A DNA stretch of 64,000 bases, taken from sequence record OR062946.1; one strand, given 5' to 3'. Of this stretch, positions 60,155-62,317 are shown one piece after another (the first letter of the stretch is position 1; every line of letters begins with the position of its first letter). The notes below the pieces were generated by a model. That model was not told the DNA's origin, did not search any database, and worked only from the letters and a program-made list of their open reading frames with translations. A program made the position numbers and the translations under genes. The DNA is from Escherichia phage 310Ecol104PP.

Positions 60155-60183
60155 TCAAAATGAAGAAAGGGGCCGAAGCCCCT
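60155..60183 (-). terminator. rho-independent terminator (minus strand) after hoc
   Basis: Hairpin ggggccgaagcccc followed on the minus strand by a T-rich run. Confidence 0.55.
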
Positions 60184-60187
60184 GAGA

Positions 60188-61606
60188 TTATGGATAGGTA
60201 TAGATGATACCAGTTTCTAAAGCAGTTTTATGAATGATGTATCCATTACGCGATTCTTGAACATCAACTTCTGGATAGTCTTTCATCATCTTCTGAAGAG
60301 TGTAACGATGCAGGTAGTATTTACTATCTGGATCTTCAGTTTTCCAATCTTTACCTTCTTCAGTCATTTTTTGGATTTCATCCATAACCCACCAACCGCA
60401 CCAGATGTAAGCTGAGCTACGGTGTGGAAGAGGATGAACATAAGGTAATTCACCTTCTGGTTCTGGAGCAACTTTATCAGTTACCTGAACTTGACCTGTT
60501 GTTTTAACTGTTTTGCTATCATAATCAGTTGCTGTAACGACAGCAGTAACTTCAATAGTTTGACTTCCAACAGATGAAGTATCAACGGTGTATACATTAG
60601 TTGACCCTTCTACAGGAGAAGAATCTTTCTTCCATGAATATTCAATTTGCGCTTCTTCTGGAGCACCAGTAACATTAGCAGTAAATGTAGCCGAAGCATC
60701 TTGTTGAACGTTAATAGAAGGAGGAGTCAATGTAACCTGTGGATTCATTGTCTTCTTATTAACCGTTAATGATACTTCATTCGAAGTAACTTCCTTTTCA
60801 TTGTAATTTTCTGCAGTTACTTGGGCTACGCATTTAATTCTTTTTACTCCACTTGTAGTTGGAGTATAGCTAAATGTAGAGTTAGTTTCTCCACTAATTT
60901 GAGAATCATCTACATACCATTTATATGTAGCAGACGCTCCATCAGGTTGAGAAACTAAAGCAGCAGTAAATTGAACCGGGGTTCCAATTACTCCTGCTGG
61001 AGGACTATCAGGAGTTACTGCCAAAGTAGTTGTCTGCTCCTTTTTATTAACAGTCAGTGATACTTCATTAGAAGTAACGCTTAGTGCATCATAATCTGTC
61101 GCGGTTACTTGAGCTACACACTTAATTTTTTTAACTCCGCTTGTGGCAGGAGTGTAATTGAATGTAGCGCTAGTTGCTTCGTCCACAGGAGAACCGTCAA
61201 CGTACCATTGATACGTAGCAGATGCACCTGATGGCTGTGAAGCTAAAGCGGCAGTAAATTCAATAGCTGTTCCGATTACTCCAGCATCAGGGCTACCAGG
61301 AGTTACGGCTAAAGTAGTTGTTTGTGTCTTATTTTGAATTGTGATAGTTGTACTAATTTCAGCTGTTTCGGGACTACTATCGGCAACTTGATTTGTTGCA
61401 ACTACTTTAATAGTCTTTTGACCGGCAGGTCCTTTTAGTACATAACTAAAAGTTGCTGACGTTTCTTCCTGTTGAACATTATCTACAGTCCAAGCATATG
61501 TAATAGGTCCATCTCCAGTTTGACCACTGGGTGTAGCAGTAAACTGCTGAGTCTGATCTATAACTCCAGTAGGTGTTTTAGGAGTTATATCAACTGTAAA
61601 AGTCAT
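60188..61606 (-). CDS. hoc: highly immunogenic outer capsid protein Hoc with an extra tandem Ig-like domain
   Basis: 472 aa; N-terminus MTFTVDITPKTPTGVID and C-terminus GWWVMDEIQKM ... IIYTYP as in T4 Hoc (376 aa as recalled); two tandem ~96 aa Ig-like copies. Confidence 0.9.
   Translation of the reverse strand: MTFTVDITPKTPTGVIDQTQQFTATPSGQTGDGPITYAWTVDNVQQEETSATFSYVLKGPAGQKTIKVVATNQVADSSPETAEISTTITIQNKTQTTTLAVTPGSPDAGVIGTAIEFTAALASQPSGASATYQWYVDGSPVDEATSATFNYTPATSGVKKIKCVAQVTATDYDALSVTSNEVSLTVNKKEQTTTLAVTPDSPPAGVIGTPVQFTAALVSQPDGASATYKWYVDDSQISGETNSTFSYTPTTSGVKRIKCVAQVTAENYNEKEVTSNEVSLTVNKKTMNPQVTLTPPSINVQQDASATFTANVTGAPEEAQIEYSWKKDSSPVEGSTNVYTVDTSSVGSQTIEVTAVVTATDYDSKTVKTTGQVQVTDKVAPEPEGELPYVHPLPHRSSAYIWCGWWVMDEIQKMTEEGKDWKTEDPDSKYYLHRYTLQKMMKDYPEVDVQESRNGYIIHKTALETGIIYTYP
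60755..61330 (-). repeat. tandem in-frame duplication (2 x ~288 bp) encoding two Ig-like domains inside hoc
   Basis: Protein copies QTTTLAVTPGSPDAGVIGTAIEFTAAL ... SLTVNKK and QTTTLAVTPDSPPAGVIGTPVQFTAAL ... SLTVNKK, about 75 percent identical by eye. Confidence 0.85.
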
Positions 61607-61615
61607 AAGTTATCC

Positions 61616-62296
61616 TTATTTTAATGTTACGAAAGAAGAATTGCGTGTTTCACGAATTAAAACTGATCCGTCACGGTTAATGTAATAAATTAAGCTAAAT
61701 AAAGTTTGGTGTGCTGACGCATGCTCAAAACTTGTTGGGTGAGATTTCCAATCCGGAGTTTCAGCAATCCATTGATAAATCCACCAAGGAACAGTGCAGA
61801 ATCCTGGATTTTTTCCAATCAGCTGAAGATTCGGACTAAAGTTTTCCGGAAGAGTAAATACAGACGGCTTTTCAGATTCAATAATCTCAGCTACAGCCTG
61901 TTCAAACTTTTCTTCAACAAAGGGAGTATCTTCAATCAAAACATCGGTATTTTCAGGAATTTTATCCGTTTCTACTACTTCAATTTTAATGTCAGATTTA
62001 ACCGGAGAATCAATCAGAAGTGCTGCTTCTGGATTGACTTCTTCATCGTCATATTTTAACCCCTCTGCAGCATCAGCAGCATCAATTAAGTCTTTAATAG
62101 ATAACCCATCAGTCTCCGGCATAGGTTCACTAGCGAGCTTCTGGAGGGCTTCTTCAATATCAACAACGATATTATCAAAAGATTTATTCTTTTTGACCTT
62201 TATACCAAACTGTTCAGCGTATTCAGCTAATTTAGCTTTAGCTTCTTTATTATCATCAAGAGCCTTCAGCTCTGCAATATAATCTTTATCTATCAT
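61616..62296 (-). CDS. inh: inhibitor of prohead protease gp21
   Basis: 226 aa between hoc and uvsW, T4 order and length. Confidence 0.8.
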   Translation of the reverse strand: MIDKDYIAELKALDDNKEAKAKLAEYAEQFGIKVKKNKSFDNIVVDIEEALQKLASEPMPETDGLSIKDLIDAADAAEGLKYDDEEVNPEAALLIDSPVKSDIKIEVVETDKIPENTDVLIEDTPFVEEKFEQAVAEIIESEKPSVFTLPENFSPNLQLIGKNPGFCTVPWWIYQWIAETPDWKSHPTSFEHASAHQTLFSLIYYINRDGSVLIRETRNSSFVTLK

Positions 62297-62309: not shown

Positions 62310-62317
62310 TATAAATA
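62310..62317 (+). promoter_or_regulatory. T4 late promoter (TATAAATA) for uvsW
   Basis: Exact TATAAATA about 30 nt upstream of the uvsW ATG. Confidence 0.6.

What the first reader, a model, noticed from the sequence alone, without database searches (positions are those of the whole stretch)
60755..61330. Hoc carries an in-frame tandem duplication of an Ig-like domain (472 aa versus about 376 aa in T4)
Two adjacent ~96 aa segments of Hoc are about 75 percent identical and each resembles the second Ig-like domain of T4 Hoc, while both termini match T4 Hoc. This would lengthen the capsid-surface fibre by one Ig module, which could alter mucin/glycan adherence and display-platform geometry. The divergence between copies implies the duplication is not recent.
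Basis: partly seen in the sequence, partly recalled or inferred. Interest (0 to 1): 0.6.

Follow-up and report, generated by a model that had tools for sequence, protein, structure and literature searches.

The report
Four-Ig Hoc: common T4-like allele
The capsid fibre protein Hoc of this T4-like phage really does carry a second copy of its middle immunoglobulin-like domain, but about a third of sequenced T4-type phages carry the same longer form, so it is an ordinary variant.

Summary
The hoc gene (window 60188-61606, minus strand, 472 aa) contains two head-to-tail, in-frame 288-nt units: u1 at 61037-61324 and u2 at 60749-61036. They are 73% identical at both nucleotide and amino-acid level. 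T4 Hoc (376 aa) matches both ends and has one such unit.

It is not an artefact and not recent. The copies differ at 77 of 288 bases (dS about 1.1, dN/dS 0.16). The reading frame is intact, and the model shows four confident beta-sandwich domains.

It is also not unusual. The contiguous unit-unit junction occurs in 213 of the 656 phage genome records that match hoc, including PST, RB27, PP01, ime09 and HP3. Protein databases show three length classes, 376, 472 and 568 aa, corresponding to 1, 2 and 3 units. Published work already describes Hoc relatives with 1 to 10 Ig-like domains.

The added value is evolutionary. Units keep positional identity across phages but are mosaic. One 376-aa Hoc (teqhad) is a clean chimera of the first-unit head and last-unit tail of a 3-unit allele. 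T4's own unit carries a 34-nt patch of u1 type. The middle domain therefore behaves as a copy-number-variable cassette reshaped by recombination. Effects on fibre length and mucin binding are inferred, not shown.

The parts
60188..61606 (-). hoc coding sequence, 472 aa plus stop. [quoted passage not shown]
   Evidence: ORF list. phmmer against PDB hits T4 Hoc 5vf3_Z at E = 1.3e-215. PHROG phrog_1149 'Hoc-like head decoration' at E = 9.7e-141. Pfam PKD, Ig_2, Ig_3 and BiPBP_C hits.
61325..61606 (-). Ig-like domain 1 (aa 1-94).
   Evidence: 74/94 residues identical to T4 Hoc domain 1. AF2 beta-sandwich with pLDDT about 90. A more distant paralogue of the units, 37-41% identical.
61037..61324 (-). 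Repeat unit u1 (aa 95-190): first copy of the domain-2 module, the copy that T4 lacks.
   Evidence: At DNA level it is 98% identical to the first unit of 235Ecol030PP, 92% to UGKSEcP1 u1, 88% to mobillu u1, and only 80% to the T4 unit.
60749..61036 (-). Repeat unit u2 (aa 191-286): second copy of the domain-2 module, orthologous to most of T4 domain 2.
   Evidence: 100% identical to 235Ecol030PP u2, 91% to mobillu u2, 88% to the T4 unit (dS 0.31, compared with 0.88 for u1 against the T4 unit).
60473..60748 (-). Last Ig-like domain (aa 287-378), equivalent to T4 domain 3. It includes D342, the equivalent of T4 D246.
   Evidence: 81/92 residues identical to T4. Pfam Ig_3 and I-set hits at 289-356. 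AF2 strands 290-376.
60191..60472 (-). C-terminal capsid-binding domain (aa 379-472).
   Evidence: 93/94 residues identical to T4 Hoc 283-376. phrog_21694 hit. The model is low-confidence here, pLDDT 35-68.
60158..60183 (-). Intrinsic-terminator-like hairpin (AGGGGCTTCGGCCCCT followed by a T-rich tail), starting 5 nt after the hoc stop codon.
   Evidence: Terminator scan and sequence read. A terminator is annotated at the same place in KAW1E185.
61616..62296 (-). inh (inhibitor of prohead protease, 226 aa), immediately upstream of hoc. This is a synteny marker.
   Evidence: phrog_1051 at E = 2e-102. The same neighbour appears in the related loci.

Best explanation
The window comes from a T4-type (Tequatrovirus) phage. 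Its hoc gene is the two-unit allele of a copy-number-variable Ig-domain cassette. Hoc is a string of paralogous Ig-like beta-sandwich domains attached to a C-terminal domain that binds the centre of the major-capsid-protein hexamers. In natural Tequatroviruses the middle domain (96 aa, 288 nt) is present once (376 aa, as in T4, T2, T6, RB14), twice (472 aa, as here) or three times (568 aa).

The two copies here are old paralogues. Both are kept under purifying selection, and each has its own positional orthologues in other phages. Copy number and unit content are reshuffled by unequal homologous recombination and short gene-conversion tracts, both between units and between alleles of co-infecting phages.

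Shown here: the repeat, its frame, its age, its frequency, the Ig-like fold prediction and the recombination footprints.

Inferred: the protein assembles on the capsid as T4 Hoc does; the fibre is about one Ig domain longer (roughly 45 A, taking the published 180 A for the four-domain T4 Hoc); and it displays one more surface-variable module. That module includes a second copy of the S-L-T motif reported as a MUC2 contact in another Hoc, which would alter reach, valency or antigenicity.
For: The repeat and its reading frame are established. The gene lies in T4 order, rnlB-24.2-24.3-hoc-inh-uvsW, and the window backbone is 97% identical to Tequatrovirus genomes.

Age and selection: u1 against u2 gives dS 1.13, dN 0.19 and dN/dS 0.16, with 43 of 77 differences at third codon positions. 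The hoc flanks among the phages compared differ by dS 0.03-0.40.

Positional orthology of u1 and u2 across 235Ecol030PP, mobillu and UGKSEcP1 is shown.

Frequency: the best 120 protein clusters comprise 81 of 376 aa, 30 of 472 or 468 aa, and 9 of 567-570 aa. In an evenly spaced sample, 19 of 60 records have a gene of about 1419 nt. The contiguous 60-nt unit-unit junction is found in 213 of 656 records.

Fold: the AF2 model has mean pLDDT 84.5, with four beta-sandwich domains at pLDDT about 90 or more. The best Foldseek matches in the PDB are four-Ig strings from Sidekick, Dscam and ICAM-5. Pfam gives PKD and Ig hits in both units.

Recombination: the single unit of teqhad matches UGKSEcP1 u1 at 45 of the informative sites over nt 3-201. 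It then matches UGKSEcP1 u3 at 16 of the last 17 informative sites (nt 213-288). The T4 unit has 15 consecutive u1-type informative sites (nt 222-255) in a u2-type background, permutation p < 5e-5. A PHI-type test on 128 distinct units gives p = 0.0005.

The closest backbone relative, KAW1E185, has a one-unit hoc. Against the window its domain 1 is 88% identical and its C-terminal domain 99.6% identical.

Sites that vary among units are enriched in predicted loops: 17 of 26 variable sites against 43 of 96 positions overall, p = 0.02.

Literature: Hoc homologues carry strings of 1-10 Ig-like domains (PMC10385173). A two-Ig Hoc binds MUC2 through S183, L184 and T185 of domain 2 (PMC11853027). 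That motif is present at 183-185 and again at 279-281 here.
Against: No experiment shows that the 472-aa protein is on this phage's capsid, or that its fibre is longer. The AF2 model gives no reliable inter-domain geometry (pTM 0.54), and its C-terminal domain is poorly modelled.

The functional role of the extra module is extrapolated from other Hoc proteins, whose key binding sites differ: domain 1 in PNJ-6, domain 2 in PNJ-9, domain 3 in evolved T4 (PMC11853027).

The order of events (gain or loss) is not resolved.

The unit-level analysis used the 120 best-scoring protein clusters, which is a biased sample, and DNA from only eight alleles.
Confidence: 0.9

Rival explanations
1. The T4-like three-Ig Hoc is ancestral, and one old duplication in a sub-lineage produced the four-Ig form. 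The copies then diverged in place.
For: All four Ig-like domains are paralogues (37-41% identity between domain 1 and the units, 36-38% between the units and domain 3), so Hoc has grown by serial duplication before. T4's unit is overall u2-type. RB49 Hoc also has three Ig domains (PMC10385173).
Against: Single-unit Hocs fall into u1-type, u2-type and chimeric classes. The teqhad unit is a precise chimera of the first-unit head and last-unit tail of a 3-unit allele, which requires a multi-unit parent. T4's own unit carries a u1-type tract. Copy number is uncoupled from backbone relatedness. A single gain with vertical descent does not fit these observations; repeated loss, gain and exchange does.
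Confidence: 0.15
2. The copies were divergent from the moment the duplication arose. The two-unit gene would have been created by unequal crossover between two already divergent single-unit alleles in a mixed infection, so the 27% divergence says nothing about the age of the arrangement.
For: Both u1-type and u2-type single-unit alleles exist in the population. T-even phages recombine very actively (established knowledge). The hoc N-terminal part has a different history from the backbone.
Against: Even if true, the arrangement itself is old and widespread. First units of different phages differ by dS 0.07-0.61 and second units by dS up to 0.38, comparable to the flanks. The u1-type single units could equally be deletion products. 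This is a variant of the main explanation rather than a contradiction of it.
Confidence: 0.25
3. The repeat is an assembly or sequencing artefact, a falsely expanded repeat.
For: Tandem repeats can be mis-assembled in general. No reads are available here.
Against: The copies differ at 77 of 288 positions, and the longest identical in-register run is 12 nt, so reads place unambiguously. The frame stays open through both copies. dN/dS is 0.16. The same junction is present in 213 independently deposited genomes.
Confidence: 0.01
4. The variable patches reflect targeted hypermutation by a diversity-generating retroelement, with one unit serving as template for the other.
For: Variation among units is patchy and concentrated in loops. 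Ig-like and C-type-lectin phage proteins can be targets of such retroelements (PMC10743442).
Against: Differences between u1 and u2 involve all four bases (u1: C 22, G 21, A 18, T 16) and fall mostly at third codon positions (43 of 77). Adenine-specific mutagenesis would not give this pattern. The patches recur as discrete shared haplotypes across phages, which is the signature of recombination. I did not search the window for a reverse transcriptase; from general knowledge T4-type genomes are not known to encode one.
Confidence: 0.01

Closest known systems
Bacteriophage T4 Hoc (P18056; PDB 5vf3, 8t1x; 376 aa)
   Same: Same gene in the same genomic position. [quoted passage not shown] It has the same domain types and presumably binds the capsid in the same way.
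   Different: The window protein has one extra 96-aa Ig-like module (u1) between domain 1 and the T4-type domain 2. It is 472 aa and about 51 kDa against 376 aa and about 40 kDa, and is more acidic (net charge -22 against -14).
472-aa Hoc of other Tequatroviruses (235Ecol030PP, G4500/G4507, teqskov, PST, RB27, PP01, ime09, HP3 and others)
   Same: Identical architecture and gene length (1419 nt), at 88-97% nucleotide identity. u2 is 100% identical to that of 235Ecol030PP.
   Different: Only allelic differences. The best match is 97.2%, so this exact sequence is not in the phage collection that was searched.
568-aa Hoc (UGKSEcP1, UGKSEcP2 and uncultured relatives)
   Same: Same cassette with the same flanks. 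u1 is 92% identical to the window's u1.
   Different: Three units instead of two, and the order of unit types varies between alleles.
Hoc-like decoration proteins with other numbers of Ig-like domains (RB49 Hoc with 3; PNJ-9 Hoc with 2; Serratia phage Muldoon with 10 and 2; Enterobacter phage PG7 with 1)
   Same: The same principle applies: a conserved capsid-binding domain carries a linear string of Ig-like domains whose number varies (PMC10385173, PMC11853027).
   Different: Those are distant homologues from other genera. Here the variation is between close relatives within one genus, and it involves repetition of one recognisable module.

Membership tests
Hoc (highly immunogenic outer capsid protein) family | C-terminal capsid-binding domain homologous to T4 Hoc residues about 281-376 | tested here: met
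   93/94 residues identical to T4. phrog_1149 and phrog_21694 'Hoc-like head decoration' hits.
Hoc (highly immunogenic outer capsid protein) family | N-terminal linear string of Ig-like (PKD/I-set type) beta-sandwich domains | tested here: met
   Pfam PKD, Ig_2, Ig_3, I-set and BiPBP_C hits. The AF2 model has four beta-sandwich domains at pLDDT about 90. The Foldseek top hits are four-Ig strings.
Hoc (highly immunogenic outer capsid protein) family | Conserved genomic position in T4-type genomes, between inh and 24.3/24.2/rnlB | tested here: met
   ORFs and PHROG hits of the neighbours. The order is the same in T4, KAW1E185, UGKSEcP1 and teqhad.
Hoc (highly immunogenic outer capsid protein) family | One molecule bound at the centre of each gp23 hexamer (155 per capsid); dispensable for infectivity | not testable with these tools
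   Needs virion proteomics, cryo-EM and a knockout. Known for T4 (PMC10385173).
In-frame tandem domain duplication | Head-to-tail copies with no spacer, period equal to one structural domain, reading frame kept | tested here: met
   The period is 288 nt (96 aa), with 2.0 copies and start-to-start spacing equal to the unit length. The two units have superimposable predicted strand patterns.
In-frame tandem domain duplication | Both copies maintained by selection, neither decaying | tested here: met
   dN/dS is 0.16 between the copies. Each copy is 88-100% identical to its positional counterpart in other phages.
Mucus-adherence (BAM) adhesin | Presence of residues reported to contact MUC2 or glycans (S183-L184-T185 of domain 2; D246 of T4 domain 3) | tested here: met
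   SLT is present at 183-185 and again at 279-281, and D342 is the equivalent of T4 D246. The residues come from PMC11853027. This is sequence presence only.
Mucus-adherence (BAM) adhesin | Measured binding to mucin or glycans | not testable with these tools
   Requires adherence assays, co-immunoprecipitation or glycan arrays.
Diversity-generating retroelement target | Adenine-specific differences between a template repeat and a variable repeat, with a nearby reverse transcriptase | tested here: not met
   Mismatches involve all four bases and are mostly at third codon positions. The presence of a reverse transcriptase was not searched for.

The most novel reading that the evidence does not exclude
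The middle domain of Tequatrovirus Hoc may be a recombination-driven cassette array rather than a fixed domain. It would hold 1-3 units, with unit-specific loop haplotypes that are swapped by unequal crossover and short conversion tracts. Natural populations would then continuously generate capsid fibres of different length, valency and antigenic surface. On this reading the laboratory T4 Hoc, the reference for structure, mucus-adherence and display work, is itself a one-unit derivative carrying a u1-type FG-loop patch. I found no paper describing this within-genus polymorphism or the footprint in T4. If copy number and patch type tune mucin or glycan binding, or escape from anti-Hoc antibodies, it would be a natural variation system for a phage-animal interface.
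Probability: 0.35. Interest if true: 0.45.

Novelty: already known. Interest (0 to 1): 0.2.

Why it matters
It matters little as a discovery. The longer Hoc is already deposited in over two hundred phage genomes, and variable Ig-domain number in Hoc relatives is published.

It has some practical interest. Hoc is the platform for T4 display and vaccine work and the model protein for phage adherence to mucus. Natural 2- and 3-unit alleles are ready-made tests of how fibre length and valency affect mucin binding, antibody recognition and display geometry. They also warn that T4's three-Ig Hoc does not represent about a third of its genus. The recombination footprints give a small, clean example of domain-cassette evolution in a virion surface protein.

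Tried and rejected
- **Assembly artefact:** rejected. The copies are 27% divergent, their longest shared in-register run is 12 nt, and the junction occurs in 213 records.
- **Hypermutation by a diversity-generating retroelement:** rejected, because the mismatches show no adenine bias.
- **Foreign origin of u1 judged from base composition:** GC3 is 0.24-0.31 in u1 against 0.17-0.22 in u2, but this lies within the range of the rest of hoc (C-terminal domain 0.28-0.33). The result is inconclusive and I dropped it.
- **Coverage counts from the full-gene megablast:** '596 of 656 cover at least 80%' is not usable for copy number, because single-unit genes are joined from two pieces and still reach 100% coverage. 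I replaced this with a junction-spanning 60-nt query at a strict E-value.
- **Literature:** five full-text searches and reading of the main Hoc papers found no description of the 472-aa Tequatrovirus form. Sathaliyawala et al. 2010 could not be opened. Two tool calls failed on term length. One search was irrelevant.
- **Simple rule for single-unit Hocs:** the idea that every single-unit Hoc is first-unit head plus last-unit tail holds for some (teqhad, and the 112 and 122 classes) but not all. Classes 111 and 222 and the T4-type 221 also occur.
- **Sigma-70 promoter scan:** gave fewer sites than shuffled sequence (3 against a mean of 7.5). No exact late-promoter TATAAATA lies on the hoc strand nearby.

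Full report
**What is there.** The window region 58.6-63.9 kb has the T4 gene order rnlB, 24.2, 24.3, hoc and inh on the minus strand, and uvsW on the plus strand. The 24 kb around it is 97% identical to Tequatrovirus genomes such as KAW1E185, PhiZZ23 and ime09. The hoc ORF runs 60188..61606 on the minus strand and encodes 472 aa. It starts 10 nt after inh and is followed 5 nt downstream by a GC-rich hairpin with a T-rich tail.

**The repeat.** Two independent repeat finders report a spacer-less 288-nt direct repeat at 60752-61327, with 73-75% identity and a Tandem Repeats Finder score of 644. In codon register the units are u1 (aa 95-190, window 61037-61324) and u2 (aa 191-286, window 60749-61036). 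They share 70 of 96 residues and 73% of nucleotides, and the alignment scores z = 30.6 against shuffled sequence.

**Comparison with T4.** T4 Hoc from the PDB (376 aa) aligns to residues 1-113 and 191-472. Identity to T4 is:
- 74/94 in domain 1
- 84/96 for u2 and 79/96 for u1 against T4 domain 2
- 81/92 in domain 3
- 93/94 in the capsid-binding domain

**Is it real, and is it a domain?** The copies differ at 77 of 288 bases, spread over all four bases, with 43 differences at third codon positions. The longest in-register identical run is 12 nt. A repeat this divergent cannot be produced or collapsed by an assembler.

Between the copies dS is 1.13 and dN is 0.19 (dN/dS 0.16), so both copies are under purifying selection. 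Pfam finds PKD and Ig-type matches in both units. An AlphaFold2 model built on 38 homologues has mean pLDDT 84.5. It shows four beta-sandwich domains at pLDDT about 90 or more, and the two units have superimposable strand patterns. The C-terminal domain is poorly modelled. The best Foldseek matches in the PDB are four-Ig strings from Sidekick, Dscam and ICAM-5. All four Ig-like domains are paralogues of each other (25-41% identity), and the u1/u2 pair is the most recent split.

**How unusual is it?** It is not unusual.
- Megablast of the gene finds 656 phage records, and the 40 best all carry a full 1419-nt gene at 93-97% identity.
- In an evenly spaced sample of the ranking, 19 of 60 records have a gene of about 1419 nt. 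The rest, including T4, T2, T6, RB14 and RB10, have about 1131 nt.
- A 60-nt query spanning the u1/u2 junction was searched at an E-value that half-matches cannot reach. It is contiguous in 213 records, about 32% of the 656. These include Yersinia phage PST, RB27, PP01, ime09, HP3, slur02 and slur14.
- In the protein database the 120 best clusters fall into three length classes: 376 aa (81 clusters), 472 or 468 aa (30) and 567-570 aa (9). These correspond to one, two and three units.
- The literature already states that Hoc homologues are strings of Ig-like domains numbering from 1 to 10 (PMC10385173). A two-Ig variant has been characterised (PMC11853027).
- I found no paper that describes the 472-aa Tequatrovirus class specifically.

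**History of the units.** At DNA level the units keep positional identity. The window's u1 is 98%, 92% and 88% identical to the first units of 235Ecol030PP, UGKSEcP1 and mobillu. Its u2 is 100% and 91% identical to the second units of 235Ecol030PP and mobillu, and 88% identical to T4's single unit. Any u1 against any u2 is 73-78% identical, with dS about 0.9-1.5. The rest of hoc differs among these phages by dS 0.03-0.40. The u1/u2 split is therefore much older than the divergence of the alleles compared.

The units are nevertheless mosaics. Short variable patches, mostly in predicted loops (17 of 26 variable sites, p = 0.02), recur in different combinations. Two-thirds of informative site pairs are incompatible, and a PHI-type test gives p = 0.0005.

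Two footprints are explicit.
- **teqhad.** This phage has a 376-aa Hoc. Its single unit follows UGKSEcP1 u1 over nt 3-201, matching it at 45 informative sites. It then follows UGKSEcP1 u3 over nt 213-288, matching it at 16 of the last 17 informative sites. The switch falls inside the conserved K-C-V-A-Q-V-T-A stretch. This is exactly the product of an unequal crossover that deletes units from a three-unit gene.
- **T4.** Its unit is u2-type except for 15 consecutive informative sites (nt 222-255, the T-A-T-D-Y-D-A-L-S loop) that are identical to u1 (permutation p < 5e-5). Apart from T4 itself, every unit in the sample with the A-L-S form of this patch is the first unit of a multi-unit protein.

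Copy number is also uncoupled from the backbone. The closest genome, KAW1E185, has a one-unit hoc whose C-terminal domain is 99.6% identical to the window's but whose domain 1 is only 88% identical. Another close relative, ime09, has the junction.

These data fit a copy-number-variable cassette with repeated loss, gain and exchange. They do not fit a single gain inherited vertically. They do not settle which state is ancestral. The two-unit gene could also have been born from two already divergent alleles.

**How it most likely works.** By homology, the C-terminal domain seats the protein at the centre of gp23 hexamers, and the Ig-like domains project as a fibre. Both points are established for T4 (PMC10385173). 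An extra 96-aa beta-sandwich should add about one domain length. That is about 45 A if the 180 A of the four-domain T4 Hoc is divided evenly, which is an inference.

The extra module makes the protein more acidic: net charge is -22 against -14, and calculated pI is 4.57 against 4.74. This could bear on the pH-dependent clustering proposed for Hoc (PMC10385173).

It also repeats the S-L-T motif, at 183-185 and 279-281. That motif was reported as the MUC2 contact in domain 2 of PNJ-9 Hoc (PMC11853027). Reported contact sites differ between Hoc proteins, so greater valency is only a hypothesis.

**Verdict.** The observation and interpretation are correct, and the feature is a real, old, selected domain repeat. 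It is a common, already deposited allele class of a protein family known to vary in Ig-domain number. Interest is low (0.2). The more novel reading is a recombining cassette array in which T4's own Hoc is a derived one-unit form with a u1-type patch. It is plausible and testable, but of moderate importance.

Noticed in passing
P0044 (protein; no window coordinates): This is a 567-aa Hoc. Its domain 1, first unit and C-terminal domain resemble the window's (C-terminal domain 89/94 identical), but its second and third middle domains and its last Ig domain are only 37-50% identical. It looks like a cassette-swapped five-Ig chimera drawn from a more distant Hoc lineage.
   Followed up: partly
L001 (T4 GT7 hoc), unit nt 222-255 = hoc codons about 168-179: T4's single domain-2 unit carries a 34-nt tract identical to the window's u1, inside an otherwise u2-type sequence. 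This suggests the reference T4 Hoc descends from, or recombined with, a multi-unit allele.
   Followed up: yes
L005 (Escherichia phage teqhad hoc) compared with L004 (UGKSEcP1 hoc): The teqhad 376-aa Hoc is a clean chimera of the first-unit head and third-unit tail of a UGKSEcP1-like three-unit gene. The breakpoint lies between unit nt 201 and 213.
   Followed up: yes
L008 (KAW1E185) compared with window 60188-61606: The closest backbone relative (97% over 24 kb) has a one-unit hoc. Identity to the window is 99.6% in the C-terminal domain but 88% in domain 1, so a recombination boundary lies inside hoc.
   Followed up: partly
MG010123.1 (hit H10): A 32-kb record named 'Staphylococcus phage SAJK-IND' contains a T4-type hoc 93.7% identical to the window's. 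The record is probably mislabelled or contaminated.
   Followed up: no
P0024 and P0060: Hoc clusters are named 'endonuclease' in Shigella sonnei and Bacillus cereus assemblies. This looks like misannotation, with T4-like phage contigs sitting inside bacterial assemblies.
   Followed up: no
MZ501066.1, MK327940.1, OR887633.1, KX452698.1: In several phages hoc is annotated in two parts or spans an odd length. FriedrichMiescher has 'Hoc part 1/part 2', G29 has two CDS over 1474 nt, and KNP5 spans 2072 nt. These may be frameshifts or insertions in this non-essential gene.
   Followed up: no
MN850622.1 (L003) and OZ035759.1: Phages labelled Mosigvirus (mobillu, mar005p1) carry a Tequatrovirus-type multi-unit hoc; mobillu's is 91% identical to the window's. 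This is either exchange between genera or a taxonomic label issue.
   Followed up: no
window 62310-62317 (+) and 60158-60183 (-): An exact T4 late-promoter motif TATAAATA lies 30 nt upstream of uvsW on the plus strand. No exact copy lies on the hoc/inh strand nearby. A strong terminator-like hairpin follows hoc.
   Followed up: no
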